DNA of 64,000 nt from Chloroflexota bacterium (lineage in GTDB: Bacteria > Chloroflexota > UBA11872 > VXOZ01). Below are positions 5,119 to 48,580 of the stretch, one piece after another. The stretch is taken from assembly GCA_012270555.1 (NCBI GenBank), contig JAAXIC010000029.1, positions 11,601 through 75,600 on the forward strand, given 5' to 3'. The first letter of the stretch is position 1; every line of letters starts with the position of its first letter. Below the pieces are notes generated by a model that did no database searches, was not told the DNA's origin, and was given only the letters and a program-made list of their open reading frames with translations. The translations under genes and the position numbers were made by a program.

Positions 5119-5567
5119 ACCAACAAGACTCCACCACAAGTTCATTGACGCCATGACGGCCGTGATAATTCACGGCCGTCATGTGTTTAATTTGTCAAGA
5201 CCGTCTGAGACTTGGTGCGTCTGGCTCCGCAGAGCAATAGAGATTGCGTGCAAAGTCCATCCTGCAAGGGACTAGGCGACAAGTGCTACCTAGAGCCCTT
5301 ACCCCAAGGGACCGCCTGATTCCATCCCGCTTTAGTTTGTTCTAGCGAAATACTCATATATCACCTACTCTATGGATTTGACATGTGTTTAGATGTATGA
5401 TAGGGTCGCTAAACGGATAATGGTTATGTATTGAAAAGCGACAAAACTATTAGAATTTTCCTGGTAGGCTGAACTAAGCAGTGCGATGAAAGGGACAGTA
5501 GGTGCCGGTCTGGGCAGGAAGCGGCAGGCACGGTCACTCAACCGGAAGAGGGTTAGGACAAAGCGCT

Positions 5568-8549
5568 ATGGCTCGTTTGCGTGCGTTGCTCCGTGCAGTT
5601 TCGCTTTGGGGTTCTATCAAGCGCATAGTGCCTGAGGTGGGGCGGCTTGGCATAGGGTTCGCGCTGGCGGCGGCGCTGAGCTTGGTCTTTGCCTCGGTAG
5701 CGCAGGCGCAGACGGACAGCGGGGAGAGTGGTGTTCCGAGGCTGACGATAGCGCGGTCGCACGCATCGGTGGTGAAGGGGGAGGAGGCGACATTCACCAT
5801 CACGGCGAGCAGCGCGCCGAGCGCGGACCTCGATGTATACGTGCAGGTACAGGTAACGGTCAGGGAGCGGTCGCTGTATCAGAGCAAGGTCATAGTGGTG
5901 TCTATGGCGGCGGGGGAGCGGACGATAGAGTTCATAGCGGGAACGGGCGGTAGCGAAGTAGGCGAGGGGACGCTGACGCTTGACGTGAGCATACTGGGTG
6001 GCAGCGGCTATCGCTTGGGGGAGACACAGGTGGCAGGCATTCGGGTGACGGATCCCCCACCGGCAGCAGGGACGAGGCAAGGAGTGCCCGCAGCGCCGTC
6101 GGGCTTCACGGCCAGTGCGGTAGCTGAAGACAGCATCGCGGTGAGTTGGACTGGTGTGGCAGGGGTGTCACGCTATCGGCTGGAGAAGCAGCTTGGGTCG
6201 CTTGGCATTGTGATGTGGAGAGTGGTGGGAGGACTGGATAGTATTGCGCAGACGAGCGCGACGGTGGCGGGCTTGCGGTCCGGGACGCAGTATCAGTACA
6301 GAGTGCGGGCCTACAATGCGGCAGGGTGGGGTGTCCCATCGTCAAGCGCAAGCGCCACGACCCAGGGAGTGCAGGGGCAAACTACCGATTTGGTGGGAGT
6401 GCGCGCCGCGCCGCCCACGCCGGGCGGGTTCAGCGCGAGCGCGCCGAATCATTTCACCATCAAGGCGAGTTGGAACGCGGTGACTGGAGCCAATTGCTAT
6501 CGGTTTGGCGTCTGGATTCACACAATTGGGTACCCGGCGGGTTGGCATTACAAGAATACGCCGGCAACGAGTTACACGTGGACGGGGGGTATTGACCGGG
6601 GCACGACGTACGACATAAGAGTAGCGGCAGCGAACGTTGATGACTGCCCCCCTGATGAGACAATTTCTGCGGAGTGGAGCGCTGATAGTTGGTTGAAAGT
6701 GACGACGCCCCGCCCTGATCCGCCGGCGCCCTCTGGGTTTAGCGGCAGCGCAACCGGCACCCATAGCATCAGCGCGAGTTGGGACCGGGTGGTTGGCGCC
6801 AGCAAGTATGAGTTTGGCATCAAGACAGGCACTCCCGGCAGTTGGAAATCCAAAGAAGTCTCAAGTCCGGCGACGAGCACGACGTGGAGTACGGGTCTGG
6901 CTCCGAACACGACGTATGAAATACGCGTGAGGGCCCACGGCGACCGCCATTGGCTTGCATTCGTGTGGGGTCCCTATAGTGAGGCGGAAGTGACTACCGA
7001 CGAAACATCGACACCGCCACCACCGCCGCCACCGCCGCCACCATCCAAATTGGCTACGCCAAAAGTTGACATCGTCCCGCTGCCGCAGCGCAAGGTGCGG
7101 TTGCAGTGGCAGGCAGTGACAGGCGCATCCGGGTATACCGTGCAGATTCAGAAGAGGGGTGGAAACTGGTCATCGCCTTCGCCTAGAGAAGAGACTCAAG
7201 GAGCCAACGAAACCTCTTACGATATCAACCTCATGGACATCTATGGAGGCGAGGGCCTAGCCCACGATACCAATGGCTTTGAATTTCGCGTAATGGCGAA
7301 GCATTCAGACTCAAACAGGAACAGCGCTTACAGTGCTGACATCATCGTCAGAGACAGTCCAAGTGTCACCGTCAACGGGCATAGTTCGAATAGGAATACG
7401 GCTGTAGTCAAGTGGAAAGCGCCAAGGAACGCCAAAGAGTACTTCGTGCGCTGGCGGGTGCTTGGAGATGACGCGAGCGGAAATGCTTATACGAGTCCTG
7501 GCTGGCATTTGGATGCAAGTTCTCTGCCAGCATCGACGTTCGCGCCGACTACTGCGACACCCTCTCCTACGTCGCTTACTTTGACAGCGCCTACAACTAT
7601 CGAGCATACGATTAGCGGCCTGACGCCGGGGGCGCTCCACGCCGTTCAAGTGGTATATCGGATCGACGACGGCTGGGTCTTCTCCGGTCGAGACGCCTAT
7701 GTATGGACTTCGAAGAATAAGCCTGCTCCTCTCACAAGAGTAGCGGGGTACCCCTTCTACGGTCATTTTGCGAACAAAACATATGCATATAGGATTTGCA
7801 AGAGTACGTTCGGTACAGACAGCAATACTTGGGCATTGATGATCGAGCATGCGTTGATGCAGTGGCAGAAGGCGACGAACGGCCTGATCTCAATGGTGCC
7901 TGAACATGACACGAGTAACCCAAATCATAGGCCAACTTCCCCGGAATACAAACCGTGTACGCAATACTCTTCATTCTTTGATGTATTTCTCTACACATTT
8001 GACGACCGCGAGCGGAGCGAAATCCGCATGATTAACCCGCCAAACAACGCTCCCTACCCGTGGGCCTTCTACGTTTACGAGATCGCGGCGGACCTCCTAA
8101 AGCATTGCCTGGTTAATAGCATAGCTTGCGTTACCGCGCCTGGCTTAATCGGCAAGCCTATCGAGGCGAGTACTGAGTTCCAAAGTGCGGACATTACCTT
8201 CAATTTTGATGAAGTGGAGGAAAAAAAGCTTAGTCCCGCAGTGCCTTCAGACGTGGTTTTCAATTCGTGTGTTATCAATGCAAATCCTCAGCCAAACGAC
8301 ATAAGACAATTGCCTAACAAGACTTGGACATCTGACCAATACGCCGCATATGCAGTTACAGTCCATGAAGGGGGACACGCGTTGGGTATTGGGGGCATCG
8401 AGATTGATCTGGCCACATTCACAGTCCTGGCAAGAGGCGCTCACCCAAGCACCGGAGACGCGGTGCTCAACTACACTTGGTCGGAACCGGACTGCGCGCC
8501 GCATCCGTTGGACATCATGGCGATTCACGCACTCTATCAGTCGCCCTAG
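5568..8549 (+). CDS. secreted multi-domain protein: beta-sandwich domain + multiple fibronectin type III domains + Pro10 linker + C-terminal metzincin-like zinc metalloprotease domain
   Basis: Signal peptide MARLRALL…FASVAQA (ATG 5568; ORF track GTG 5502 alternative). Repeated FN3 signatures (SWTGVAGVSRYRLEK…YQYRVRAYNAAGWG; SWDRVVGASKYEF…YEIRVRAHG). PPPPPPPPPP linker. Metzincin N-terminal motif YRICKS…ALMIEHALMQWQKATNGLISMV and HEGGHALGIGG (HExxHxxGxx but third ligand is Gly); Met-turn position reads AVLNY. Confidence 0.8.
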   Translation: MARLRALLRAVSLWGSIKRIVPEVGRLGIGFALAAALSLVFASVAQAQTDSGESGVPRLTIARSHASVVKGEEATFTITASSAPSADLDVYVQVQVTVRERSLYQSKVIVVSMAAGERTIEFIAGTGGSEVGEGTLTLDVSILGGSGYRLGETQVAGIRVTDPPPAAGTRQGVPAAPSGFTASAVAEDSIAVSWTGVAGVSRYRLEKQLGSLGIVMWRVVGGLDSIAQTSATVAGLRSGTQYQYRVRAYNAAGWGVPSSSASATTQGVQGQTTDLVGVRAAPPTPGGFSASAPNHFTIKASWNAVTGANCYRFGVWIHTIGYPAGWHYKNTPATSYTWTGGIDRGTTYDIRVAAANVDDCPPDETISAEWSADSWLKVTTPRPDPPAPSGFSGSATGTHSISASWDRVVGASKYEFGIKTGTPGSWKSKEVSSPATSTTWSTGLAPNTTYEIRVRAHGDRHWLAFVWGPYSEAEVTTDETSTPPPPPPPPPPSKLATPKVDIVPLPQRKVRLQWQAVTGASGYTVQIQKRGGNWSSPSPREETQGANETSYDINLMDIYGGEGLAHDTNGFEFRVMAKHSDSNRNSAYSADIIVRDSPSVTVNGHSSNRNTAVVKWKAPRNAKEYFVRWRVLGDDASGNAYTSPGWHLDASSLPASTFAPTTATPSPTSLTLTAPTTIEHTISGLTPGALHAVQVVYRIDDGWVFSGRDAYVWTSKNKPAPLTRVAGYPFYGHFANKTYAYRICKSTFGTDSNTWALMIEHALMQWQKATNGLISMVPEHDTSNPNHRPTSPEYKPCTQYSSFFDVFLYTFDDRERSEIRMINPPNNAPYPWAFYVYEIAADLLKHCLVNSIACVTAPGLIGKPIEASTEFQSADITFNFDEVEEKKLSPAVPSDVVFNSCVINANPQPNDIRQLPNKTWTSDQYAAYAVTVHEGGHALGIGGIEIDLATFTVLARGAHPSTGDAVLNYTWSEPDCAPHPLDIMAIHALYQSP

Positions 8550-8593
8550 GTGCTACAGGATGCGCACGAAGGAAATCAAGTGAGACGGGAGAA

Positions 8594-10291
8594 ATGATGA
8601 TGCAGGCAAGAAAGAAGCTCCGGGCGGGCTTGTTGGTATTAGGGTTCTCGTTGTTGGCGCTATTGTCTTTGGCCTGTGGCGGCGTCCAAGTTCCGCCGGC
8701 AAGTATAGCACGGTCCTATTCTACTGTTTACTGGTCGCCTGACGGCTCGCGGATTGTCTTTTCTCGCGGTGCGCAAGGGACGTTCGTGGTTGACGTTGGG
8801 GGCACACGCTTGCACACCATCCCACCTGATACAGCGATTGGGGAAGAATGGGAACCGGGCAGCGTTTCAGCGGCGCTCTCTCCTGATGGATCGCGCGTAG
8901 CGTACGTTGCGGTGTTCAATGCCAGTTTCCTTGCTGGTAACTTCAACGCTGAAATCATGAGCGCAAGGGTAGATGGCACTGATGTGCAGAGGCTTACACG
9001 CTCCCGCCAGAGTCATCTTGACGACACGTTGCCTTCGTGGTCGCCTGATGGGCGCCGAATTGCATTTGGAACGAGAGGGACTGGGGGTGGTCACAAGCTA
9101 GCAGTCATGAACGCTGATGGCTCCAACGTGCTGATACTCACTCAGCGTTTGCCCTACTTCTTTCTTGATAGTCCGCCAGTGTGGTCTCCTGACGGCGATT
9201 GGATTGGGTTCTTGGGCCGCCATCCGGAAGAGGGTGTGAGCACTCAACGTCTCGCACTTCACATGGTGCGTTCGGATGGAACGGAAGTCTTGAATCTTGG
9301 CGCGGCGGCAAGCCCGCCCGCCTGGTCGCCGGACGGCAGCAGGATTGCGTTCTTTCAGGACACTGAAGGGGGAATGGCGCTGTATGCGGCGAATGGAGAC
9401 GGCACGGAAAAGCGGATGTTGTTGGCGCTAGGTCAAGACCATGAGTGGTATGTAGGTGATCATTCGTGGTCGCCGGATGGTTCGGAGCTTCTCTTTACCG
9501 CTTACAAGAGAGATGACAGATCTTGGATTGGCCACACCATTAGCGTTGAGAACGGAAACATCCTCACCGAGTTTGCAGGAGTAGTGGCCGCATGGTCGCC
9601 GGATGGGTCGCGCATCGCGGTACAGACGAGGATTTGCAAGGGCGGCTACCTGAGCGACTGCAATCCAGACTTCTTGCAGGATGTCTTGTACACGATAGCG
9701 CGGGATGGCACGGATAGGCAGGTGCTGGTGCGCGGCTCGGCCACAGAAATGATTCTGGGCGCCGATTGGTATGACGTGTCCGCAGACGTTGCTGCATGCG
9801 CTGAGTTGCACGCGGGTAACCCGGGCTTGGTAGCAGACTGCCGGACGCTGTTGACGATACGCAATGCGTTGGCAGGCGATTCCTTCCTGAACTGGAGCGC
9901 TGACGTTCCCATAAGCGAGTGGGAAGGCGTATGGGTGGAAGGCGAGCCACCGCGGGTGCGGGGATTGGCGCCCGGTAGTGGAGCCGGCGACCCTAAGTTG
10001 AAGGGGGTAATTCCACCGGAGCTGGGAAACCTGAGTGAGTTGTGGCTGCTAGACCTGGGGAGTAATGATCTCACTGGGAGTATTCCGTCAGAGTTGAGCA
10101 ACCTCAGCAAGTTGGAATATTTAAATCTCCAACACAACATGCTGACCGGAGACATACCGCCGGAGTTGGGGAACCTAAAGGAGCTGGGAGAACTGATCAT
10201 CAACGGCAACGATCTAACCGGCTGTGTACCCCAGGCATTATCCGCAACTGTGACTAAATTCTATTCCGATGGATTGGAATACTGCGAGTGA
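8594..10291 (+). CDS. lipoprotein with TolB-like PD40 beta-propeller and C-terminal plant-specific leucine-rich repeats (eukaryote-like protein)
   Basis: Triple ATG at 8594/8597/8600 after GGGAG; lipobox LSLAC. Repeated WSPDGSRIAF/WSPDGDWIGF PD40 motifs. LRRNT-like cap (CRTLLTIRNALAGDSFLNWSAD…WEGVWVEG). 24-residue PS-LRRs (LTGSIPSELSNLSKLEYLNLQHNMLTGDIPPELGNL) ending in Cys cap (TGCVPQALS…DGLEYCE). Confidence 0.85.
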   Translation: MMMQARKKLRAGLLVLGFSLLALLSLACGGVQVPPASIARSYSTVYWSPDGSRIVFSRGAQGTFVVDVGGTRLHTIPPDTAIGEEWEPGSVSAALSPDGSRVAYVAVFNASFLAGNFNAEIMSARVDGTDVQRLTRSRQSHLDDTLPSWSPDGRRIAFGTRGTGGGHKLAVMNADGSNVLILTQRLPYFFLDSPPVWSPDGDWIGFLGRHPEEGVSTQRLALHMVRSDGTEVLNLGAAASPPAWSPDGSRIAFFQDTEGGMALYAANGDGTEKRMLLALGQDHEWYVGDHSWSPDGSELLFTAYKRDDRSWIGHTISVENGNILTEFAGVVAAWSPDGSRIAVQTRICKGGYLSDCNPDFLQDVLYTIARDGTDRQVLVRGSATEMILGADWYDVSADVAACAELHAGNPGLVADCRTLLTIRNALAGDSFLNWSADVPISEWEGVWVEGEPPRVRGLAPGSGAGDPKLKGVIPPELGNLSELWLLDLGSNDLTGSIPSELSNLSKLEYLNLQHNMLTGDIPPELGNLKELGELIINGNDLTGCVPQALSATVTKFYSDGLEYCE

Positions 10292-10496
10292 CTGTGAGAC
10301 TGCAAGAGCCGATATACCTGATCTACTTTGTGGAGTGAAGTTTGGTGTAGACAATGATGATAGGTGCGTGGCTTCACACCCTGTCACTGTCGACTCGGTG
10401 ATGAGCTACGATTCTGAAACTGGTGTGAATGAGCCGGACTGTGCGCCGCACCCGCTGGACATCATGGCGATATTCTCGTTGTATCAATCCCCATAG
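10292..10496 (+). pseudogene. remnant of metzincin C-terminal domain (decayed tandem-duplicate fragment)
   Basis: Last about 45 codons (…HPVTVDSVMSYDSETGVNEPDCAPHPLDIMAIFSLYQSP*) align to the C-terminus of the 5568..8549 gene (…HPSTGDAVLNYTWSEPDCAPHPLDIMAIHALYQSP*), about 90% nt identity over the core. No HExxH or catalytic domain upstream; retains serralysin-like Met-turn SVMSY. Confidence 0.5.
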
Positions 10497-10536
10497 TTCC
10501 CACTGATAGCGTGAAGTGAGGCGGGAGAAGACAGTG

Positions 10537-12579
10537 CTGACATTGAAGAAGCTCAGGGCAGGTTCGTTAGTAGTGGGGATATTGTTGTTGGCGTTATCGT
10601 CATTGGGCTGCAGTAATGGGCAGATCCCGCCGGCATGGGATGCCAATCCGTATTCAACGTTGAACTGGACACCAGACAGTACGCAGATTGTCTTTTCGCG
10701 CTCCGTTCAGGGGACGTTCGTGGTTGACGTTACGGGCACGCGCTTGCACACCATACCAACGAACGCGCCGCTTGGGGATCTTTATCATCCAGGCAGTGTC
10801 GCAGCGGCACTTTCACCTGATGGATCGCGGGTAGCATACGTTGCTTTATTCTCTGACGGCTTATATGGGGCATCCAACGCTGAAATCATGATCGCAAGCA
10901 TAGCTGGTACAAGTGTCCGCAGACTTACACGAAATGTAGACTCCCATGATACGCATCCCGTGTGGTCGCCGGACGGGAACTACATTGCCTACTTGTCTGG
11001 TGACAAACTTGCCGTGATGACTGTAGACGAAGGGAACGTGCAGGCACTTCCGTTGTCAGTTGTTTCCGGGGGATTTGGGCCGGTTTGGTCGCCCGACGGC
11101 AGTAGGCTTGCATACTTGGTTTGGGATGAAGAGATCGCGCATGGAGTCCCTTACGTCATGCGGCTCGATGGATCGGACATCGTGAAGCTAGGCGATGCGG
11201 TTGTGGTTGGTGAACCGGCTTGGTCGCCCGACGGTAGCAGGATTGCGTACTTGGGCTTCGAGGAAAGTGAAGATGACAAAGTTCTCTACGTGGCACGGCC
11301 GGATGGATCGGAAGTCTTGGACCTTGGGAAGGCAGCAAGCCCGCCGGCCTGGTCGCCGGACGGCAATAGGATTGCATTCTTCCAGCAAGAAAAAGGATTG
11401 AGGCTGTATACGGCGAATCCAGACGGGACGGGCAGACGGCTGGTCTTGACGCTCGGGAGAATTGGTGAGTGGCGGCCCGGCGCGCTTTCATGGTCGCCGG
11501 ATGGCTCGACGCTTCTCTTTGCCAGTTACTACCTTTCCATTTACGAGAGGTATGAACAAGGGCCGTGGCATCTCGTCAACATAGAGGACGAAAAAATCGT
11601 TGCCGACTTTGAGGGGGAAACTCCTGAGTGGTCGCCAGACGGTTCGCGTATAGCCGTGCTCGCCAATATGTGCAAGCGCTTTGGTGACGGTGGATTCATG
11701 GAAGACTGTGATCCCAACGATCAGGACGTGCTGTACACGCTGGCGCGAGACGGGACGGATAGGCAGGTATTGGTGCGTGCGACGAATGATCGTCAGAGTA
11801 CGAAGTACGAGCGTCTGAATGCGGACTTCATACGCCGCGACGTGCCGCGCCGCCAGGCGGTGTGTGCAGTGCGCTACGCCGATAACGCCGGCTTGTCGCA
11901 GGATTGCGAGACGCTGCTGGCGCTGCGCGACAAGTTAGGTGGGGATGCCTTCCTCAATTGGCACAATTCTATCCCCATGGCACGGTGGCAAGGGGTCACC
12001 ATTGAGGGAAATCCTCCGCGCGTACACGGACTGCATATCCCTATAGCTAGCGGGGCGTCACCGGTGCTGAAGGGTGTTCTACCATCGGAGTTGGGCAATC
12101 TCAGCGAATTGCGCCGGATAGATTTCAGCGGCAATGCCTTAACAGGGGAGTTGCCGGCTGAGCTAGGCAATCTGATCAAGTTGGAACGCTTGGTTCTGTA
12201 CGAAAACAACCTGACCGGGAGTATTCCGGCAGAGCTAGGCAACTTGAGCGCATTGCAGGGATTGTATTTGGGCGGGAATGACCTGAGTGGGAGTATACCG
12301 GCGGAGTTGGGCAACCTCGCGAAGCTGGAGGAGTTGGACCTAAAGGACAATTCCCTAACGGGAAGTATTCCAGCAGCGTTGGACAACCTGAACGAGGTTA
12401 AAGTGCTCTTGCTACAAGATAACGGTCTAACTGGCAGCCTCCCACCTGAGTTAGGAAACCTTGAGAACCTGAAAACGCTCGATGTCTCGGGCAACGATCT
12501 AACGGACTGCGTGCCGAAAGTGTTGTCCGAACGTACGCCTAATGTCTTTACCGATGGATTGGAATCGTGTGCGGAGTGA
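10537..12579 (+). CDS. lipoprotein with PD40 beta-propeller and plant-specific LRRs (paralog of 8594..10291)
   Basis: GTG 10537 after GGGAG (GTG 10516 alternative); N-term aligns with paralog (LKKLRAGSLVVG vs ARKKLRAGLLVLG); lipobox LSSLGC. WSPDGxxIA(Y/F) repeats, LRRNT cap (CETLLALRDKLGGDAFLNWHNS), 6 PS-LRRs, Cys cap (TDCVPKVLS…DGLESCAE). Confidence 0.85.
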   Translation: MTLKKLRAGSLVVGILLLALSSLGCSNGQIPPAWDANPYSTLNWTPDSTQIVFSRSVQGTFVVDVTGTRLHTIPTNAPLGDLYHPGSVAAALSPDGSRVAYVALFSDGLYGASNAEIMIASIAGTSVRRLTRNVDSHDTHPVWSPDGNYIAYLSGDKLAVMTVDEGNVQALPLSVVSGGFGPVWSPDGSRLAYLVWDEEIAHGVPYVMRLDGSDIVKLGDAVVVGEPAWSPDGSRIAYLGFEESEDDKVLYVARPDGSEVLDLGKAASPPAWSPDGNRIAFFQQEKGLRLYTANPDGTGRRLVLTLGRIGEWRPGALSWSPDGSTLLFASYYLSIYERYEQGPWHLVNIEDEKIVADFEGETPEWSPDGSRIAVLANMCKRFGDGGFMEDCDPNDQDVLYTLARDGTDRQVLVRATNDRQSTKYERLNADFIRRDVPRRQAVCAVRYADNAGLSQDCETLLALRDKLGGDAFLNWHNSIPMARWQGVTIEGNPPRVHGLHIPIASGASPVLKGVLPSELGNLSELRRIDFSGNALTGELPAELGNLIKLERLVLYENNLTGSIPAELGNLSALQGLYLGGNDLSGSIPAELGNLAKLEELDLKDNSLTGSIPAALDNLNEVKVLLLQDNGLTGSLPPELGNLENLKTLDVSGNDLTDCVPKVLSERTPNVFTDGLESCAE

Positions 12580-12623
12580 CAGCAGAGCCACGCTAGTTCG
12601 TCTACTGTATTGAGATTAGTGGG

Positions 12624-15600
12624 ATGTCAGGAATGAGAAGGCTTTTTACAAGTGCAGTGGTACTAGGGCTGCTCGTGATGATCGGGGCGGTTGTGGGATG
12701 TAGTGGGATATCCGGCGGTCACGTCATGCAAGATGCGCCATTGGACACGCCTTTGGCCGAGTCCCAAACACCAACGCAGAAAGACACGCCGCCTGAGAAT
12801 ACACTCAGGCTAGAAGCTGACAAACTAATGAACAGTCAGCCCCGCGACGTCAGCCGCTTCAACCTCTTTGCAGTGAAACCGTTAGGAGCAGCATCTGTAG
12901 GTGATGTAGAAGCCGACAGTTTAGAGGACGTGTTGGAGAAGGGGCTGCGCTTGGCCCAGGCTTCTCCGGTGCATTTAGCGGTGCGCGGAACGGGCGTGAA
13001 TAACTCGGTCCGTTGTGCATGGCGAGGCGTGGCCAGAACTGCGACACAACGAGAACAGGCAGTCAGGTTCTGGTTGGAACTCGCCACTGCTGATCCGCTG
13101 CCGTCGGCAGCGGAGGTGGAGCGCCGTTTCACGGCTGAGTTGAATCGGATAAGAGTGTTGTTGCCGGAGACCGCTAAGGCTAATTTTAGATCCCTTGCGC
13201 AGGGCGGCCTGTCGATCGAGTATCTCTTCCTGACCTGCTACGTGGACTACACTGCCAGTGAGTACATTCTGGGCGCGGGGCCGACTACGCTCACGCTGGC
13301 CTACGACCACATGGCGGAAACACGTTCATATGATCTTTACAGCCGGGCGCACACGGCGGGAGAATTTGGCGGTGATGCGCTGTTGTCTGCGACTGAGTAC
13401 CAAGCCGGGCTCGACCAGATGGTCGCTGACGCGGAGGATGCGCTGAGTGGGATAGTAGAGGGACGGGAGAGCGTGGTATTCTTGGCACCCATGGGGGCGC
13501 ATCACGCGATTGCGATTGAGGCGTGGCAGGTCGTTGATCAGTGGGACGTGCAGACGGTGGACGGCGTGGTGAACGCGGTGCGGTACGGGGCGTATGCCGG
13601 CGACCCGGAGCATACGCAGACGCTGGCGGGGTTGAAGACGCGGGTCACGACGGCGGCAGCGAGTGATGCGTTTGTGAACAAGCGGATTGCCAACGCCAGC
13701 GGCTTGCAGGCGCACTATAGGAGTATCGGGGCGTATGGCGACATCACGCCGGACGATGGCGAGACGACGACGTTCACCCCGGCGCAACCGCCGCCGCTGC
13801 GGGTCTGCGCCAACGGCACGGCGGTGCCCAGTCCCCGAGATAACCGCGCGCTGGTGCTGGACTGTGGGACGCTATTGGAACTGAAGGACACCCTGGTTGG
13901 CACGGCGACGCTGAACTGGAGCGCGAGCACGGCGCTCACGAGTTGGGACGGGGTGACGACGGGCGGCACGCCGAGCCGGGTGACCAGGCTGCGACTGGCG
14001 AGCAAGAGCCTGAGCGGGAGCATTCCGGTGGAATTAGGCACGCTGAATGCCTTGACCCACCTGGACCTGAGCAGCAATTCCCTGACTGGGGAGATTCCGG
14101 AGGAATTGGGATTGCTGGAGAATCTGGTAGAGCTGAAGCTTTCCGGCAACACGTTCACAGGATGCATACCGCTGGCGCTGGAGGACGTGACCACGAACGA
14201 CCTGAGCAGCCTGAATATCCTCTACTGCCTGGAGGAACCGCCCGCGCCGGAGGACCTCAGCGTGTCTCTGGCCGACGACACGTTCACCCTCAGTTGGACT
14301 GCCGTCACCGGCGCGGACCAGTACCGGGTGCAGTACAGAACCGGCGGCTCTGAGAGCGAGTGGACGAGCCTAGATGCCGTGACGACTGCCAGCCAGACGC
14401 TTAGTCCCGAGGATGGGCCCTTATGTGAGACGACCTATGAGTTTCGCGTGCAGGCGCACGGCGACGGCATTGCCCTCGCTGCCGAGTGGGGCGAGCCGTC
14501 CGCGGCGGTCTCGCACACCACGGGAACCTGCAACCTCCCGCCTGTGTTCGCCGTCGAATCCTACGCCTTCACAGTATCCGAGGACGCTTCTCCGTGGCCT
14601 GAGGTGAGCGTCTTGGGAACCGTTTCGGCAACCGACCCGGACGAGGGAGATACGCCGTTCTACTACATAACTGCCGGGAATGAGGCTGGGCAGTTCGGAA
14701 TAGACGGGAGCCGAGGGGAAATTCTGGTCTGGCGCGCTCTGGACCACGAGACGGCCTCATCGTACACGTTGACGGTGGAGGCGCGGGATGGGAAGGAGAA
14801 CGGCACGGCATCGGTGACAGTTGAAATCACTGTCTCCGAGGGTCCCCCACCCGCGCCGGAGGACCTCAGCGTGTCCCTTGCGGAAGGCGTGTTTACTATC
14901 TCATGGAGCGAGTTGACGGGAGCAGACCGGTACCGAGTGCAGCACAGAACCGGTGGCGAAGAGGGTGAGTGGACGAACCTGGATGCCGTGACGGCTGCCA
15001 GCCAGACGTTCAGCCCAGAGGGCGGCGCCATATGCGGCACGACTTACGAGTTCCAGGTGCAGGCCCGGGGAAATGGCATTGCCTATGTAGCCGGGTGGGG
15101 AGAATTCTCCGAGTCCGCTTCGCACACGACCGAAGCGTGCAATCTGCCGCCCGCGTTCGACTCTGCGACGTATACCTTCACGGTTGCCGAGGATGCTGCC
15201 ACCAGCACGGCCGTCGGCTCCGTTTCCGCCACCGATCCCAATGAGAATGACAGTGTGACCTACTCAATCACTGCAGGCAACGGCGACGGCACGTTTTCCA
15301 TAGACGGCAGCAGCGGGAGCATTGCGGTCGCTGCCGCCCTGGATTATGAGACCACCACGGCGTACTCACTAACGGTGCAGGCCAGCGACGGCAAGGAGGA
15401 TGGCACGGCGACGGCAACAGTCGCGATCACTGTCACCAACGTGGCGGAAGATCCTCCGCCCGCGCCGGAGGACCTCAGCGTGTCTCTGGCCGACGACACG
15501 TTCACCCTCAGTTGGACTGCCGTCACCGGTGCGGACCAGTACCGGGTGCAGTACAGAACCGGCGGCTCTGAGAGTGAGTGGACGAGCCTGGATGTCGTGA

Positions 15601-16991
15601 CCGCTGCCAGCCAGACGTTCAGCCCAGAGGGTGGCGCCTTATGCGGGACGACTTATGAGTTCCAGGTGCAGGCACACGGCGACGGGGAGACCTACCTTGT
15701 CGAGTGGGGAGAGTTCTCCGAGTCCGCTTCGCACACGACCGAAGCGTGCAATCTCCCGCCCGCGTTCGGCTCTGCGACATACACCTTTACGATAGCTGAA
15801 GACGCTGACATAGGTACGACCGTTGGCACCGTCTCCGCCACCGACCCCAACCCCAACGATGGGGACAGTGTGACCTACTCAATCACTGCGGGCAACGGCG
15901 ACGGTACGTTCTCCATAAACGGCAGCAGCGGGAGCATTACGGTCGCCGCCGCGCTGGATTACGAGACCACCATGGCGTACTCGCTGACGGTGCAGGCCAG
16001 CGACGGGAAGGAAGGCGGCACGGCGTTCGCGACGGTCGAGATCACGATCACCGACGTGGCGGAAGATCCCCCGCCCGCGCCGTATAGACTGCCCTCGGTC
16101 TACAATGACGGCGTGTTCCAGCTCAGTTGGAGGTCCGTCGCTGGCGCAGACCAGTACCGGGTGCAGTACCGTATCGGCGGCGACGCGGGTACCTGGATCA
16201 ACTTGGCCGCCACGACGAACACATACCAGTTTTTTACCCTGGAGGGCGGAATTACGTGCGGGACGACCTATGAGTTCCGCATGCAGGCGCGTGGCGACGG
16301 GGAGACCTACCCCGCTATCTGGGGTTCACCATCCAGCGCCGCCATATTCACTGCCCACCCTTGCAACCAGGCGCCTGCGTTTGGCTCTGCGACGTATGAC
16401 TTCACGGTAGCCGAGGACTCTGCCACGGGCACGGCCGTTGGCACTGTTTCCGCCACCGACCCCGACAGCGGGGATAGCGTGACCTATTCGATCACCGCCG
16501 GCAATGGCGACGGCAAGTTTTCCATAGACGGCAGCAGCGGGAGCATTACGGTTGCCGCCGCGCTGGATTACGAGACCGCAACGTCGTACACGCTGACGGT
16601 GCAGGCCAGCGACGGGAAGAAGGATGGCACGGCGACAGCGACGGTCGCAATCAGCGTCACCAACGTGGCGGAAGCTCCTCCGCCCGCGCCGGAGGACCTG
16701 ACCGGCACGGTCACGCACAACAGCGTCACGCTCTCGTGGGACGCGCCCGATGACACCACCGTCACGAGCTACCAGATACTGCGGCGCAGACCCGACCACG
16801 GCGAGACAGAGTTGCTGGTGCACGTAGCCGATACCGAGAGCATTGACGATACCGAGAGTATCGAGACCACGTACACGGACACGGATGTGGCGCCCGGCAC
16901 CCGCTACGTGTACCGGGTCAAGGCCATTAACGCTATCGGTCTGGGTCCGTTCTCAAAGCCCGTGACCGTGACTACTGCGCAACAGCCCTAG
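12624..16991 (+). CDS. giant lipoprotein: N-terminal unknown domain + PS-LRR module + four tandem [FN3 + cadherin] units + terminal FN3
   Basis: Lipobox VVGC. LRRNT-like cap (CANGTAVPSPRDNRALVLDCGTLLELKDTL…NWSAS…WDGV) then LSGSIPVELGTLNALTHLDLSSNSLTGEIPEELG. Four about 200-aa units starting PPAPEDLSVSLA with FN3 (YRVQYRTGG…YEFQVQAHGDG) then cadherin-like repeat (…VSATDPN…ITAGNGDGTFSIDGSSGSI…LDYET…YSLTVQASDGK). 1455 aa. Confidence 0.85.
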   Translation: MSGMRRLFTSAVVLGLLVMIGAVVGCSGISGGHVMQDAPLDTPLAESQTPTQKDTPPENTLRLEADKLMNSQPRDVSRFNLFAVKPLGAASVGDVEADSLEDVLEKGLRLAQASPVHLAVRGTGVNNSVRCAWRGVARTATQREQAVRFWLELATADPLPSAAEVERRFTAELNRIRVLLPETAKANFRSLAQGGLSIEYLFLTCYVDYTASEYILGAGPTTLTLAYDHMAETRSYDLYSRAHTAGEFGGDALLSATEYQAGLDQMVADAEDALSGIVEGRESVVFLAPMGAHHAIAIEAWQVVDQWDVQTVDGVVNAVRYGAYAGDPEHTQTLAGLKTRVTTAAASDAFVNKRIANASGLQAHYRSIGAYGDITPDDGETTTFTPAQPPPLRVCANGTAVPSPRDNRALVLDCGTLLELKDTLVGTATLNWSASTALTSWDGVTTGGTPSRVTRLRLASKSLSGSIPVELGTLNALTHLDLSSNSLTGEIPEELGLLENLVELKLSGNTFTGCIPLALEDVTTNDLSSLNILYCLEEPPAPEDLSVSLADDTFTLSWTAVTGADQYRVQYRTGGSESEWTSLDAVTTASQTLSPEDGPLCETTYEFRVQAHGDGIALAAEWGEPSAAVSHTTGTCNLPPVFAVESYAFTVSEDASPWPEVSVLGTVSATDPDEGDTPFYYITAGNEAGQFGIDGSRGEILVWRALDHETASSYTLTVEARDGKENGTASVTVEITVSEGPPPAPEDLSVSLAEGVFTISWSELTGADRYRVQHRTGGEEGEWTNLDAVTAASQTFSPEGGAICGTTYEFQVQARGNGIAYVAGWGEFSESASHTTEACNLPPAFDSATYTFTVAEDAATSTAVGSVSATDPNENDSVTYSITAGNGDGTFSIDGSSGSIAVAAALDYETTTAYSLTVQASDGKEDGTATATVAITVTNVAEDPPPAPEDLSVSLADDTFTLSWTAVTGADQYRVQYRTGGSESEWTSLDVVTAASQTFSPEGGALCGTTYEFQVQAHGDGETYLVEWGEFSESASHTTEACNLPPAFGSATYTFTIAEDADIGTTVGTVSATDPNPNDGDSVTYSITAGNGDGTFSINGSSGSITVAAALDYETTMAYSLTVQASDGKEGGTAFATVEITITDVAEDPPPAPYRLPSVYNDGVFQLSWRSVAGADQYRVQYRIGGDAGTWINLAATTNTYQFFTLEGGITCGTTYEFRMQARGDGETYPAIWGSPSSAAIFTAHPCNQAPAFGSATYDFTVAEDSATGTAVGTVSATDPDSGDSVTYSITAGNGDGKFSIDGSSGSITVAAALDYETATSYTLTVQASDGKKDGTATATVAISVTNVAEAPPPAPEDLTGTVTHNSVTLSWDAPDDTTVTSYQILRRRPDHGETELLVHVADTESIDDTESIETTYTDTDVAPGTRYVYRVKAINAIGLGPFSKPVTVTTAQQP
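14230..16680 (+). repeat. intragenic tandem repeat, four units of about 610 bp (FN3-cadherin modules)
   Basis: Unit starts near 14240, 14846, 15454, 16078 (and terminal partial at 16676) all begin ccgcccgcgccggaggacctcagcgtg or close variant. Units 1 and 3 share long identical nt runs (e.g. gacgacacgttcaccctcagttggactgccgtcaccgg…gaccagtaccgggtgcagtacagaaccggcggctctgag). Confidence 0.8.
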
Positions 16992-17319
16992 TGGAGAACG
17001 GGCCTTTCCAGTGGCGGCGGGCCCAGTACGAGAGGGTGCTTGATCTGGCTCGCGCTCGTCAGAGACAAACCCGGGCCCAGGGAGTTTTGCTGCATGGGTT
17101 CCACGCTGATGTTTCGCCGAATAGAACGCAGATTGCGATGTACAAGGGAATGATCGGCAGCGATGATAGAACGCATTGACCGGATGCTACGTCCGGTCAG
17201 TTCATGTCCAGACATGCTTGGCGGATGCACTGGGGGGATACTGCTATTTCTTCGTATCGATTGTCCCTCTTGGCGGTTTTGGAGGCGATGCGAGAGCCTC
17301 TAAGATTGGAGACCAAGCC

Positions 17320-18432
17320 TCAACGTGCCAAATCCGAGAACCGGTTGGGATTCCAGTGGGCCACCGGTCGGGTAGTCTTGCCCGTGGTTAGGAGGTCTCG
17401 GATTATCTCGGCGGTCATGGGCGCTTGTTGGATACCCAGCTTGTGGTGACCGACGGCGTAGTAGTAGCCGGGGAGAGCAGAGGGCCCAACCAGTGGATAG
17501 CCGTCGGGGCTAAAGGGGCGGAAACCCGACCAGAGTTCTGCGATAGTGCCCGCCGCTAGGTCGGGAATAGCTTCGATGGCGGCGTGGAGTATATCCTGGA
17601 TCGCGCCGGCCGTATTGCGCCGGTCGTAACCTACCTTTTCGGTCGTTGCACCCAGCACAATGCGTCCGCTCTTGCGCGGGATGATGATGTACTGCGGCAG
17701 GTTGATGAGGTGGCTGAGCGCGACGGTATCCGCATGCAGGGAGAGCATCTGGCCGCGCTCCGGCTGCACGGGGATATGTTCCGGTGCTCCCTGCAGCGTG
17801 CCACCCCAACTGCCGGCCGCGTTGACGACCGCTCCAGCCTGGAACACCTGGTTTGCCGTGCGCACGCCGGTGACCCTGCCATTTTCGACGTGTAGTGCCT
17901 GGGCGTCGCAGCCGGCGAAGATGCTGACTCCCGTCTTGCGCGCGCCTACTTCCAAAGCGCGCAATAGGCGCCGGTTTTCGATATTTGCGCATGATGTCAC
18001 CATGCCGAGGGTAACCGGCAACGTGACCTCCGGTTGGCGTCTCCGCACCTCATCAGGTGGGATGAACTCACATCCAAGATCTGCCCCATCCAATTGGGGC
18101 TGCAGCGCGCGCATGTTCGCTTCATCTTCCGCAGTCAGGGCAAGATGGAGGGCGGGGTGACGCACCGCCTCGATGTCGATGCCAGTCTCGTCGGCGAGCA
18201 CGGGGGCCAACGTAAGCAGCATCTCGCTGCCCTCCACCCGCAGCGCAAAATCGTCAATGCTCTCATAGGGATAGGGTCGGCTCATCAGCACACCCGCGGA
18301 CGCCCAAGAAGCTTCCTTGCCAACCGCGCTGCGTTCGAGCAGCGCCACGGAAAGGCCGGCGGCCCGCACGGCGCGCGCGATCATGAGACCGATGATACCG
18401 GCGCCGATGACTACAACATCGTAGGTTTCCAT
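17320..18432 (-). CDS. thiO: FAD-dependent glycine oxidase / D-amino-acid oxidase family protein (ThiO-like)
   Basis: Rossmann dinucleotide motif METYDVVVIGAGIIGLMIA; conserved blocks IIIPRKSGRIVLGATTEKVGYD and SGFRPFSPDGYPLVG matching B. subtilis ThiO. ATG at 18432 preferred over TTG at 18456. Confidence 0.7.
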   Translation of the reverse strand: METYDVVVIGAGIIGLMIARAVRAAGLSVALLERSAVGKEASWASAGVLMSRPYPYESIDDFALRVEGSEMLLTLAPVLADETGIDIEAVRHPALHLALTAEDEANMRALQPQLDGADLGCEFIPPDEVRRRQPEVTLPVTLGMVTSCANIENRRLLRALEVGARKTGVSIFAGCDAQALHVENGRVTGVRTANQVFQAGAVVNAAGSWGGTLQGAPEHIPVQPERGQMLSLHADTVALSHLINLPQYIIIPRKSGRIVLGATTEKVGYDRRNTAGAIQDILHAAIEAIPDLAAGTIAELWSGFRPFSPDGYPLVGPSALPGYYYAVGHHKLGIQQAPMTAEIIRDLLTTGKTTRPVAHWNPNRFSDLAR

Positions 18433-18741
18433 CCTGGTCTTTAGCCCCTCACACAAAGTCCGATGCTTTGATGAATCCTCTAGCCTTCAATTCTACTCTA
18501 CTTGTGCCGCTGTGTTCCGCCCTTGTAGCTTCACTCCCGTGTAGTCTCCAAGGTCTGGAAGGAGCTTCATGTAGTCCCCTCGCGGCTTAGGATCTTGGCA
18601 AGACTACGGTATGAGTTGCTTAGTCCCCCTTACTAGGCTTGTATAAGTCCACTAGGTCTGATTGTGGCATAATCGAACAGGTTGCAACGCAGCTTGTCTC
18701 CCATTCACAATACTTTGGAGCAAATATCAGGGGACTCGTGC

Positions 18742-19623
18742 ATGCCGGAGAAAGTGCTCTTCGACACGGACATTGGCACTGACATCGATGACGCGGTGTG
18801 TCTGGCATACCTGTTGGCCCAGCCCGCGTGCGAATTGCTTGGCATTACAACGGTGAGCGGTGAGGCAACCAAGCGCGCCATGCTGGCGAGCGCCTTGTGC
18901 CGGGCGGCCGGCAGGGATATACCGATCCACCCTGGCGCGGAAGAACCGTTGCTCATTGCGCAGAGGCAACCTCAGGCGCAGCAGGCGGACGCACTAGGTG
19001 ATTGGTCGCACAGTAGCACGTTTCCGCAAGGCTCTGCCGTGGAATTCTTGCGCCAAACTATTCGCGCGCATCCCGGTGAGGTAACCTTGCTCGCAGTCGG
19101 CCCGCTGACCAATGTCGGTCTCCTCTTTCGCACAGACCCTGAGATTCCCAGTTTGCTAAAGGCTTTGGTGCTCATGTGCGGCCAGTTCTTTGGGCGTGCG
19201 TCGGGACGAGGTCCGGTGGAATGGAACGCCTCGTGCGATCCTCATGCCGCGGCCATTGTCTACCAGAGTACGGTTGCAACCCATCGGTCACACGGCCTCG
19301 ACGTCACCCGGCAGGTCCGCATGCCCGCGAGTGAAGTCCGGGCACGCTTTCAAGCCCCGTTACTGCGCCCGGTGGCGGCGTTTGCTGAGGTCTTCTTCCG
19401 GCGTCGCGACGAAATCACGTTCCACGATCCGCTCGCGGCCACCACGATCTTTGACAGCAGTATTTGCACGTTTGCACACGGCACCGTGCAGGTGGAGCTT
19501 GAGAGCCGGCAGCTTGCGGGCTTCATGCACTGGCAGGCAGACACTGCCACCGGCCTACATCAGGTAGCAGATACGGTAGACCCCAGTCGTTTCTTTGCGC
19601 ACTATTTCTCAGTTTTCAACTAA
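18742..19623 (+). CDS. nucleoside hydrolase (IU-NH family)
   Basis: N-terminal [11 protein letters not shown] (DxDxxxDD) motif. RBS AGGGGA 7 nt upstream of ATG 18742; ORF-track start 18682 adds non-conserved leader. Confidence 0.8.
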
Positions 19624-41933: not shown

Positions 41934-42045
41934 CGTGCACTCCTTTTGGCGTAGAAGATGGGCTTTGCCTCAACGCGAAAGAGACAATCAGCCTTGCAGA
42001 CCGGGAGTTGGCGGCCTACTTCTAGGAAACCCAGAATGTACGTCG

Positions 42046-42120
42046 TGGTACCCCCAGGGCGACTCGAACGCCCGCTCCTGGCTCCGGAGGCCAGTGCTCT
42101 ATCCACTGAGCTATGGGGGC
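42046..42120 (-). tRNA. tRNA-Arg (anticodon CCG)
   Basis: Minus-strand sequence GCCCCCATAGCTCAGTGGATAGAGCACTGGCCTCCGGAGCCAGGAGCGGGCGTTCGAGTCGCCCTGGGGGTACCA folds as cloverleaf: D-arm AGCTCAGTGGATAGAGC, anticodon stem CTGGC/GCCAG with loop CTCCGGA (anticodon CCG), T-arm GGGCGTTCGAGTCGCCC, encoded CCA. Coordinates +/-1. Confidence 0.85.
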
Positions 42121-42210
42121 CTGTTCTTCTTTATGATACCAGACCGCTGCGGCGCACCACAGACCGCGAGAGATGGGGTCACTAGCTCGAATGAGGAAGG
42201 GAACAGTAGT

Positions 42211-43686: not shown

Positions 43687-43720
43687 GGACTATTCCTTAC
43701 ACATGCCCCAACACTGAAAG

Positions 43721-45223: not shown

Positions 45224-45233
45224 CAATGCTACC

Positions 45234-47141: not shown

Positions 47142-47156
47142 TATCTCTCTGCGCCC

Positions 47157-47465
47157 CTAGCCTTTGAGTGTGTTGATTTCATCTACGTTCAGCGTATCCC
47201 GATGACGCGACAGCGCCACAATGATGGCAAGACCCACCGCGGCTTCCGCAGCGGCAACCGTCAACGAGAAGATGACGAAAGCTTGCCCCAGCATGTTATC
47301 CAGCGCCACGGCAAACCCTACAAAAGTGACGTTGGCTCCCAGCAAAATAAGCTCAATTGACATAAACACAATAAGCAAGTTACGCCGCACCAGCACACCG
47401 AGCAAGCCGATGATGAAGAGTGCCGCGCCCAGCACCAAGTAGTATTCCAAGGCTGGGATGATCAT
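47157..47465 (-). CDS. nuoK: NADH-quinone oxidoreductase subunit K
   Basis: 102 aa, 3 TM, conserved Glu residues in TM2/TM3. Confidence 0.85.
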   Translation of the reverse strand: MIIPALEYYLVLGAALFIIGLLGVLVRRNLLIVFMSIELILLGANVTFVGFAVALDNMLGQAFVIFSLTVAAAEAAVGLAIIVALSRHRDTLNVDEINTLKG

Positions 47466-47466
47466 C

Positions 47467-48556: not shown

Positions 48557-48580
48557 TGCACACTCTCCCCCGATTTTTTC

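What the first reader, a model, noticed from the sequence alone, without database searches (positions are those of the whole stretch)
14230..16680. Four tandem roughly 610-bp intragenic repeats with near-identical non-adjacent units (1 and 3): signs of recent gene conversion or expansion in a surface protein
- Each unit encodes one FN3 plus one cadherin repeat and begins with CCGCCCGCGCCGGAGGACCTCAGCGTG.
- Units 1 (about 14240) and 3 (about 15454) share long stretches of exact nt identity (about 120 nt including …GACGACACGTTCACCCTCAGTTGGACTGCCGTCACCGG…), while unit 2 is more diverged.
- Such repeats are recombinogenic and typical of length- or phase-variable adhesins; the number of units may vary between strains.
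- An assembly collapse or expansion error is also possible here.
Basis: seen in the sequence. Interest (0 to 1): 0.55.

Follow-up and report, generated by a model that had tools for sequence, protein, structure and literature searches.

The report
Patchy gene conversion in repeat adhesin
A probable surface lipoprotein of an uncultivated Dehalococcoidia bacterium carries four tandem fibronectin-III-plus-cadherin modules that have swapped short stretches of DNA with each other, which is real but normal for this large protein family.

Summary
The repeat is real. Gene 12624-16991 (+, 1455 aa) encodes a lipoprotein signal, an unannotated N-domain and a short LRR. Four in-frame FN3+cadherin units follow (609/609/615/615 nt), then a diverged terminal FN3.

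Units 1 and 3 are not near-identical overall (74% nt). They share one tract, 14238-14359 = 15456-15577: 120/122 identical, longest exact run 74 nt. Over that tract unit 2 is only 72-75% identical to either. Elsewhere unit 3 is closest to unit 2 (82% overall).

The mosaic is significant (permutation p<5e-5). Synonymous divergence drops in the tract (dS 0.13 against 0.5-0.7 for other pairs).

A related locus, L046 (79% nt, colinear over all four units), shows the exchange post-dates the split. It suggests unit 3 was the donor and unit 1 the recipient. L046 has one extra unit, so unit number differs between relatives. The colinearity argues against assembly collapse.

Across 120 homologues, unit number runs 0-7. 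25 of 113 multi-unit proteins have a unit pair at ≥80% aa identity.

Phase variation is unsupported, and strain-level length variation could not be tested. Verdict: an ordinary new member of a known kind, low to moderate interest.

The parts
12624..16991 (+). Gene for a 1455-aa modular protein: signal/lipobox, N-domain, LRR, 4 x (FN3+cadherin), terminal FN3
   Evidence: ORF list, translation, Pfam Cadherin 8.3e-78, fn3 8.2e-36 and LRR hits
12624..12701 (+). Lipoprotein-type signal peptide MSGMRRLFTSAVVLGLLVMIGAVVG|C; lipobox V-V-G-C with Cys26
   Evidence: Read from the translation. A Cys in the same position is kept in homologues P0083, P0059, P0013 and P0033. Lipidation is inferred, not shown.
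12801..13823 (+). Conserved N-domain (aa 60-400) with no family annotation
13836..14228 (+). Short leucine-rich-repeat module with Cys-containing caps; the end boundary is the ...LNILYC cap, the start is approximate
   Evidence: Pfam LRR_1, LRR_8 and LRR_4 over aa 452-512; family consensus
14229..14837 (+). Unit 1 (FN3 + cadherin). Its cadherin half is the most diverged of the four.
14838..15446 (+). Unit 2 (FN3 + cadherin)
15447..16061 (+). Unit 3 (FN3 + cadherin), a mosaic: head matches unit 1, middle matches unit 2, a short patch near 15714-15725 matches unit 4
   Evidence: AF2 model of this unit has pLDDT 96.2. Foldseek best hits are protocadherin-15, CELSR1 and P-cadherin two-domain fragments at E 7e-12 to 1e-9.
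16062..16676 (+). Unit 4 (FN3 + cadherin). Its FN3 half is the most diverged. It is the best-conserved positional orthologue in L046 (89% nt).
16677..16988 (+). Terminal, diverged FN3 domain that starts with the same PPPAP linker
   Evidence: fn3 6.6e-16, 58.7 bits; alignment
14238..14402 (+). Conversion tract, unit 1 copy (inferred recipient). Core 14238-14359; covers the linker and about the first half of the FN3 domain.
   Evidence: 120/122 and 157/165 identical to 15456-15577/15620; outgroup comparison
15456..15620 (+). Conversion tract, unit 3 copy (inferred donor)
5502..8549 (+). Upstream cassette gene: secreted FN3-rich protein with a C-terminal HEGGH zincin-like motif
   Evidence: Pfam fn3 2.3e-27 and a weak Peptidase_M10 hit at 1.3e-3; motif at aa 955; homologues lie upstream of the N-domain gene in 22 related loci
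8477..10291 (+). Upstream cassette gene: PD40 beta-propeller + LRR lipoprotein (paralogue 1)
   Evidence: Pfam; lipobox LACGG; conserved upstream in 31 related loci
10516..12579 (+). Upstream cassette gene: PD40 beta-propeller + LRR lipoprotein (paralogue 2); ends 44 nt before the repeat gene
   Evidence: Pfam; lipobox LGCSN

Best explanation
The region is a genuine tandem array of four FN3+cadherin modules inside one gene. The gene encodes a membrane-anchored, outward-facing lipoprotein of an uncultivated Dehalococcoidia (Chloroflexota) bacterium, probably associated with a marine invertebrate. The array arose by duplication of roughly 609-nt module pairs, and it predates the split from the nearest sequenced relative. 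Since then, short non-reciprocal exchanges (intragenic gene conversion) between misaligned units have partly homogenised it. The clearest event copied about 120-165 nt, covering the proline linker and roughly the first half of the FN3 domain. It most likely went from unit 3 into unit 1. Its 5' end sits where array homology begins. The same recombination, acting at the conserved PPPAP linkers, adds or removes whole units in frame over evolutionary time. That changes the length of the extracellular chain without destroying the protein. Shown here: the repeat anatomy, the domain identities, the mosaic, its statistical support, its timing relative to L046, and unit-number differences among relatives. 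Inferred: lipidation and surface exposure, an adhesive or spacer function, the recombination mechanism, and the direction of transfer.
For: Anatomy:
- The period is 609/609/615 nt and every unit is in frame.
- Domains: four cadherin hits, and an fn3 hit in each unit. The unit 3 model has pLDDT 96 and matches metazoan cadherin two-domain fragments at E around 1e-11.

Mosaic:
- Units 1 and 3 are 98% identical over 14238-14359, whereas unit 1/unit 2 and unit 2/unit 3 are 72-75% over the same columns.
- The run of 41 concordant variable sites was not reached in 20,000 shuffles (p<5e-5). The best breakpoint gives Fisher p = 8e-13.
- dS for units 1 and 3 is 0.13 in the first 51 codons, against 0.51-0.70 for the other pairs. 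Amino-acid constraint therefore cannot explain the identity.
- Domain trees disagree. The FN3 halves of units 1-3 cluster (71-81% aa) with unit 4 apart. The cadherin halves of units 2-4 cluster (77-85%) with unit 1 apart.

Outgroup L046:
- It is colinear over 2921 nt at 79%.
- In the tract, Q1-Q3 is 98%, Q3-R3 89%, Q1-R3 91% and Q1-R1 80%. Q4-R4 is 89%, taken as the orthologue baseline.
- L046 has an extra 584-nt unit between the LRR cap and the orthologue of unit 1.

Family:
- 120 homologues carry 0-7 units. 25 of 113 have a unit pair at ≥80% aa identity.
- Patchy 93-99% tracts, including between non-adjacent units, occur in the chromosome-level MAG loci L002, L021 and L032.

Surface location: lipobox with a conserved Cys.
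Against: - No reads or conspecific assemblies cover the array, so the unit count and the mosaic in this particular assembly are not independently verified.
- The direction of transfer rests on one outgroup whose gene carries frameshifts (unit lengths 611 and 614 nt). The orthologue baseline comes from unit 4 alone.
- Orthologue identity for units 1-3 outside the tract is only 73-80%, so both lineages have had further exchanges that blur positional orthology.
- The shuffle test ignores rate variation along the unit. The unit 2 comparison over the same columns controls for that only in part.
- Function and localisation are inferred from domain types alone.
- Unlike many homologues, this protein lacks the C-terminal LRR module, so a stalk-presents-distal-domain model fits it less well.
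Confidence: 0.8

Rival explanations
1. Assembly artefact. The array, or the unit 1-like head of unit 3, is a chimera, collapse or expansion produced when repeats or co-occurring strains were assembled.
For: The repeats are 0.6 kb long with shared exact runs of up to 74 nt. Two short-read assemblies of the same organism yield only about 1-kb contigs for this gene (L047, L048) and both stop at window 13585. The window's sequencing technology is unknown.
Against: The order unit 1 to unit 4 plus terminal FN3 is colinear with an independent assembly of a different organism, as one 2921-nt HSP. The units are only 63-82% identical, with no exact run above 74 nt, so they are resolvable by ordinary reads. 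Unit 3 has private differences in both head and tail and is not a copy of other units. The ORF is intact and all units are in frame. The same patchy pattern occurs in chromosome-level MAGs.
Confidence: 0.07
2. Higher-order duplication. A two-unit block (units 1+2) was recently duplicated to give units 3+4, which would explain why non-adjacent units 1 and 3 resemble each other.
For: The unit 1/unit 3 offset is exactly two units (1218 nt).
Against: Units 2 and 4 do not share the matching similarity: 56-66% nt in the FN3 head and 71% overall. The unit 1/unit 3 similarity is confined to 20-27% of the unit, and unit 3 is otherwise closest to unit 2. The four-unit order already existed in the common ancestor with L046.
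Confidence: 0.03
3. Rapid, programmed length or phase variation. The array is a contingency locus whose unit number switches at high frequency within populations, like Rib/alpha-C, SasG/Aap or other 'Periscope' proteins.
For: It is a surface-type protein with in-frame modular repeats and identical 12-nt linkers. Unit number differs among relatives. 10 of 113 homologues have unit pairs at ≥90% aa identity. In the Periscope protein paper (PMC8201768), repeat identity correlates with length variation.
Against: DNA identity between units here is 63-82%, well below the highly identical repeats of Periscope proteins. There are no short sequence repeats. The four-unit block is retained between lineages about 20% diverged. 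No population data exist.
Confidence: 0.1

Closest known systems
Cadherin-, FN3- and LRR-domain 'eukaryote-like' proteins of sponge-associated bacteria (Robbins et al. 2021, PMC8163846)
   Same: It combines the same domain types. Relatives are all Dehalococcoidia/Chloroflexota MAGs, and one relative comes from the Petrosia ficiformis sponge metagenome. The paper reports cadherin- and FN3-domain genes enriched in sponge MAGs, with FN3 especially abundant in Chloroflexota.
   Different: The specific architecture (lipobox, unannotated N-domain, LRR, alternating FN3-cadherin units) and its conserved upstream cassette did not appear in the papers I searched. The host of this window's organism was not established.
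Periscope proteins / variable-length repeat surface proteins (SasG, Aap, Rib/alpha-C, Sgo0707; Whelan et al. 2021, PMC8201768)
   Same: Tandem folded beta-sandwich domains in a surface-anchored protein. SasG likewise has a two-domain repeat unit (E-G5). Unit number changes by intragenic recombination.
   Different: Repeat DNA identity is much lower (63-82%). The anchor is an N-terminal lipid rather than a C-terminal sortase motif. Strain-level length variation has not been shown.
Metazoan cadherin ectodomains (protocadherin-15, cadherin-23, CELSR1)
   Same: The unit 3 model superposes on two-domain cadherin fragments at Foldseek E 7e-12 to 1e-9 and 22-28% identity. Residues resembling the AED, TDPD/N and LDYE calcium-binding motifs are kept in all four units (read).
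   Different: The cadherin domains alternate with FN3 domains instead of abutting each other. The canonical inter-cadherin DxNDN calcium linker is therefore replaced by (T/S)xVAE(D/A)PPPAP. The protein is bacterial and lipid-anchored.
Concerted evolution by intragenic gene conversion in tandem-repeat genes
   Same: Mosaic units, homogenised synonymous sites, interior units more alike than edge elements, and units more alike to each other than to their orthologues.
   Different: Nothing unusual. Tract length (about 120-165 nt) and patchiness are typical.

Membership tests
Cadherin-domain protein (Pfam PF00028) | Sequence match to the cadherin profile above the curated cut-off, in each repeat | tested here: met
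   257.4 bits against a cut-off of 28.8, four stretches
Cadherin-domain protein (Pfam PF00028) | Cadherin-type beta-sandwich fold | tested here: met
   AF2 model pLDDT 96.2; Foldseek top hits are all cadherin ectodomains, probability 1.00
Cadherin-domain protein (Pfam PF00028) | Calcium binding at inter-domain sites | not testable with these tools
   AED, TDPD and LDYE-like residues are present, but the partner domain is FN3 and the DxNDN linker is absent.
Fibronectin type III domain (PF00041) | Profile match in the first half of each unit | tested here: met
   Units 1 and 3 score 29.4 and 30.9 bits (cut-off 25); units 2 and 4 score 21.5 and 20.8 bits (E 3-4e-4); terminal FN3 scores 58.7 bits
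Periscope / variable-length surface proteins | Tandem array of highly identical repeats at the DNA level | tested here: not met
   Pairwise unit identity is 63-82% nt; only one 122-nt tract reaches 98%
Periscope / variable-length surface proteins | Repeat number varies between strains of one species | not testable with these tools
   The conspecific contigs L047 and L048 stop at 13585. Between species, L046 has 5 units against 4 here.
Periscope / variable-length surface proteins | Cell-surface anchoring | tested here: inconclusive
   Lipobox VVG|C with a conserved Cys. No experimental localisation, and the envelope type of this lineage was not examined.
Phase-variable contingency gene | Short sequence repeat or invertible element able to switch expression or reading frame | tested here: not met
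   TRF finds no arrays in 11000-19000. All units are multiples of 3 nt.
Eukaryote-like proteins of sponge symbionts | Eukaryote-type interaction domains (LRR, cadherin, FN3, beta-propeller) in a host-associated bacterium | tested here: inconclusive
   The domains are present. One relative is from a sponge metagenome. The identical fragment sits on a contig tagged ROBB19-1_SAMN11878277 whose host I could not verify.
NTR/TIMP-like module (for the N-domain only) | OB-type NTR fold | tested here: inconclusive
   [not shown]
NTR/TIMP-like module (for the N-domain only) | Free N-terminal Cys that chelates the protease zinc, as in TIMPs | tested here: not met
   The modelled domain starts about 35 residues after the lipobox Cys26, which is predicted to be lipidated. 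The TIMP requirement is from my own knowledge.

The most novel reading that the evidence does not exclude
The four co-directional genes 5502-16991 form a conserved Dehalococcoidia host-matrix interaction cassette. They encode an FN3-rich HExxH metalloprotease-like protein, two PD40-propeller/LRR lipoproteins, and this N-domain/LRR/(FN3-cadherin)n lipoprotein. In this reading the unannotated N-domain is a bacterial NTR/TIMP-like module that binds or regulates the co-encoded protease or host matrix metalloproteases. Recombination-driven changes in the number of FN3-cadherin units tune how far the complex reaches from the membrane.
Probability: 0.08. Interest if true: 0.6.

Novelty: new member of a known kind. 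Interest (0 to 1): 0.27.

Why it matters
The finding itself matters little. Patchy homogenisation and changes in unit number are the expected behaviour of tandem-domain surface proteins, and this survey shows them to be routine across the family.

It does give a clean worked example of intragenic conversion, dated against an outgroup, in an uncultivated symbiont lineage. It also warns annotators and assemblers that genes of this family are repeat-rich and often fragmented.

The wider context has more value. The family is large and confined to Dehalococcoidia. It has a confidently folding but unannotated N-domain and a conserved neighbouring cassette. It may therefore be a useful handle on how these symbionts engage host matrix.

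Tried and rejected
- **Tandem Repeats Finder** found nothing, because the period exceeds its 500-nt limit. The repeat finder and my own alignments were used instead.
- **Two-unit higher-order repeat** was rejected, because units 2 and 4 lack the matching similarity.
- **Simple unequal crossover as the origin of the mosaic** was rejected by reasoning. A crossover between units 1 and 3 would give a hybrid at the array's left end together with a deletion. The reciprocal product would be a unit 3-head/unit 1-tail hybrid. Neither gives a unit 1-type head at position 3 with both parents retained.
- **Amino-acid constraint as the cause of the identity** was rejected on synonymous sites.
- **My first inference on direction** (unit 1 as donor, because the unit 2/unit 3 head identity is low) was overturned by the L046 outgroup. 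That comparison shows unit 2's head is the odd one out and unit 1's head is unit 3-type.
- **Exact-protein look-up** found nothing for the full protein.
- **GTDB genome scan** returned 43 related loci but not the source genome.
- **JGI metagenome scan** returned one distant locus only.
- **Searches for SRP109090 and SAMN11878277** in papers found nothing.
- **The afdb50 fold library** was unavailable.
- **Foldseek against PDB for the N-domain** gave no meaningful hit.
- **The promoter/terminator scan** was at background level, apart from one strong terminator at 5152-5183.


Full report

The window holds one long ORF, 12624-16991 on the + strand, encoding 1455 aa. Tandem Repeats Finder reports nothing, because its longest period is 500 nt. 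The repeat finder recovers several families spaced 609/609/615 nt.

Cutting the gene at 14229, 14838, 15447, 16062 and 16677 gives four in-frame units of 609, 609, 615 and 615 nt, followed by a shorter fifth element.

Pfam finds four cadherin domains (8.3e-78) plus fn3 and LRR. Scanned alone, the first half of every unit hits fn3. Units 1 and 3 are above the curated cut-off, units 2 and 4 are just below it, and the terminal element is a clear FN3 at 58.7 bits. An AlphaFold2 model of unit 3 has pLDDT 96.2. Its best Foldseek matches are all two-domain cadherin ectodomain fragments, at E 7e-12 to 1e-9.

So 'four roughly 610-bp units, each FN3 plus cadherin' is correct.

What all five boundaries share is the 12-mer CC(G/A)CCCGCGCCG, which encodes the PPAP linker.

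**2. The unit 1/unit 3 similarity**

Whole-unit nucleotide identities are as follows:

| Pair | nt identity |
|---|---|
| unit 1 / unit 2 | 68% |
| unit 1 / unit 3 | 74% |
| unit 1 / unit 4 | 63% |
| unit 2 / unit 3 | 82% |
| unit 2 / unit 4 | 71% |
| unit 3 / unit 4 | 72% |

Units 1 and 3 are therefore not near-identical units, and unit 2 is unit 3's closest relative overall.

14238-14311 equals 15456-15529 exactly over 74 nt, the longest exact run between any two units. 14238-14359 is 120/122 identical, and 14238-14402 is 157/165. Over the same columns, unit 1/unit 2 and unit 2/unit 3 are only 72-79% identical.

Among the 299 variable sites of the four-unit alignment, units 1 and 3 agree at 41 in a row. 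None of 20,000 shuffles reached that run (p<5e-5). The sites that discriminate unit 1 from unit 2 as unit 3's relative switch sharply at about unit position 130 (Fisher p = 8e-13).

Synonymous divergence between units 1 and 3 is 0.13 in the first 51 codons, against 0.51-0.70 for every other pair there. Protein-level constraint therefore does not explain the identity.

Unit 3 is a mosaic. Its head matches unit 1, its middle matches unit 2, and a short patch matches unit 4.

Domain-level relationships also disagree. The FN3 halves of units 1, 2 and 3 cluster (71-81% aa) with unit 4's FN3 apart (52-54%). The cadherin halves of units 2, 3 and 4 cluster (77-85%) with unit 1's cadherin apart (59%).

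**3. Timing, direction and unit number, from relatives**

*The same organism elsewhere.* No identical full-length protein is on record. A 317-aa fragment, P0121, is 100% identical. It lies on two roughly 1-kb short-read contigs, L047 and L048, which match window 12538/12557-13585 at 100% nt. Both end before the repeats.

*The nearest relative with an array.* This is L046. One HSP aligns L046 11376-14258 with window 14239-17136 at 79.3% over 2921 nt. All four units, the terminal FN3 and 145 nt downstream are colinear. A second HSP aligns the N-domain and LRR. Between them, L046 carries an extra 584 nt: one more unit, of the type that opens the array in most family members. The closest relative therefore has five units where the window has four. 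The junction lies at the proline linkers.

This colinearity with an independent assembly of another organism is my main argument against assembly collapse or expansion here.

*The tract against the outgroup.* Q is the window unit and R is the L046 unit at the same position:

| Comparison in the tract | nt identity |
|---|---|
| Q1 - Q3 | 98% |
| Q3 - R3 | 89% |
| Q1 - R3 | 91% |
| Q1 - R1 | 80% |
| Q4 - R4 (orthologue baseline) | 89% |

Units 1 and 3 of the window are thus more alike than true orthologues, so sequence was exchanged after the split. Unit 1's head is of the unit 3 type, which points to unit 3 as donor and unit 1 as recipient.

That direction rests on one outgroup whose gene is frameshifted, so I hold it with moderate confidence. 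I had first inferred the opposite direction from the low unit 2/unit 3 head identity. The outgroup shows that unit 2's head is simply divergent from everything (≤75%).

Outside the tract, positional orthologues of units 1-3 are only 73-80% identical, against 89% for unit 4. That suggests further exchanges in both lineages.

**4. Is this unusual for the family?**

No.

- The protein search returned 430 hits. The few that carry a name are 'cadherin domain-containing protein [Chloroflexi bacterium]'.
- Using an HMM of the unit, the 120 best homologues carry 0-7 full units. 25 of the 113 with two or more units have a pair at ≥80% aa identity, and 10 have a pair at ≥90%. 23 of those 25 pairs are adjacent and 2 are not.
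- A scan of one genome per GTDB species found 43 loci, all in Dehalococcoidia/Chloroflexota MAGs. Many are chromosome-level, and several genomes hold more than one copy.
- In those loci, unit pairs with 93-99% identity over 120-150 nt but 59-80% elsewhere are common. They include non-adjacent pairs, and they sit at various positions within the unit.

Patchy conversion and unit gain or loss are family traits.

**5. What the protein is**

The N-terminus, MSGMRRLFTSAVVLGLLVMIGAVVG|C, is a lipoprotein-type signal, and the Cys is conserved in homologues.

A full HMMER scan of 1.84 billion representative proteins finds 550 clusters with this domain.

A short LRR module follows, then the array. Many homologues end in a second, larger LRR domain. 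This protein ends in an FN3 instead.

Every unit keeps two Cys (…C(G/E)TTYEF… and …CN(L/Q)(P/A)P…), and both are nearly invariant family-wide. That is compatible with an extracellular disulfide, which I infer rather than show.

**6. Genomic context**

Upstream, on the same strand, lie three genes:

- 5502-8549 encodes a signal peptide, FN3 domains and a C-terminal HEGGH motif, with a weak matrixin hit.
- 8477-10291 and 10516-12579 encode two paralogous PD40-propeller + LRR lipoproteins.

Homologues of these genes precede the N-domain gene in 22-31 of the related loci, and in L044. Downstream genes are not conserved. A strong terminator-like hairpin at 5152-5183 precedes the cassette. The cassette is probably one transcription unit, which is an inference.

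**7. Ecology**

The only relative in the JGI/NCBI metagenome set, L045, is from the Petrosia ficiformis sponge metagenome. Cadherin- and FN3-domain genes are reported as enriched in sponge-associated MAGs, with FN3 notable in Chloroflexota (PMC8163846).

The contig carrying the identical fragment is tagged ROBB19-1_SAMN11878277. I could not establish its host. 'Marine-invertebrate symbiont' is therefore likely but not shown.

**8. Mechanism and comparison**

The best reading is ordinary concerted evolution. Misaligned units within the array recombine. Short non-reciprocal tracts homogenise patches. Occasional exchanges at the conserved linkers add or delete whole in-frame units.

This works like the variable-length 'Periscope' surface proteins (PMC8201768). 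The gene fails that class's key criterion of highly identical DNA repeats, and strain-level variation is untested. I therefore do not file it as a member.

Phase variation is unsupported. There are no short repeats, and all units preserve the reading frame.

**9. Verdict**

The gene-conversion interpretation is supported and can now be dated and given a direction. The assembly-error and phase-variation ideas are, respectively, unlikely and unsupported.

It is a new member of a known kind, and interest is low to moderate. The more interesting loose ends are the unannotated N-domain and the conserved cassette, both outside the finding proper.

Noticed in passing
[not shown]
   Followed up: partly
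window 5502-8549: The upstream secreted protein has several FN3 domains and a C-terminal HEGGHALGIGG zincin-like motif, with a weak matrixin hit (E 1.3e-3). Together with the TIMP-like hint in the next-but-two gene, this suggests a protease/binder pairing, which remains speculative.
   Followed up: partly
window 5502-16991; L001, L013, L014, L033, L044: The gene order FN3 protein, PD40-propeller/LRR lipoprotein(s), N-domain/LRR/(FN3-cadherin)n is conserved in many Dehalococcoidia loci, whereas the downstream genes are not.
   Followed up: partly
window 8477-10291 and 10516-12579: Two tandem paralogous PD40 beta-propeller + LRR lipoproteins. The ORF called from the first possible start of the first one overlaps the end of 5502-8549 by 73 nt, so its true start is probably further downstream.
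   Followed up: no
L002 and L007 (OZ240224.1, genes about 22.6 kb apart): Two paralogous family genes in one chromosome-level MAG are 59-71% identical over their first 900 nt, but 100% identical over the remaining roughly 7.1 kb, including all seven units. This is either a very recent large conversion or duplication, or an assembly duplication.
   Followed up: partly
L046 10001-14114: The closest relative's copy is broken into three ORFs (units of 611 and 614 nt) and its upstream cassette genes are fragmented. It is flanked by an integrase, an IS1595-type transposase fragment and type I restriction genes. It may be a decaying copy, or an error-rich long-read assembly.
   Followed up: no
L047 and L048 against window 12538-13585: Two independent short-read contigs identical to the window both end at exactly window position 13585, inside the conserved N-domain. 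The likely cause is an assembly-graph break where paralogues share sequence.
   Followed up: no
window 42000-50000: Strong positive AT skew (0.17-0.28) coincides with minus-strand genes for NADH:quinone oxidoreductase membrane subunits (Proton_antipo_M) and the NuoG-like subunit. This is the ordinary composition of hydrophobic-protein genes. A tRNA lies at 42049-42120 (-).
   Followed up: yes
window 5152-5183: A 14-bp-stem, GC-rich hairpin followed by a T-rich tail lies after the DUF3179 gene. It is the only convincing terminator-like site in 5000-17500.
   Followed up: no
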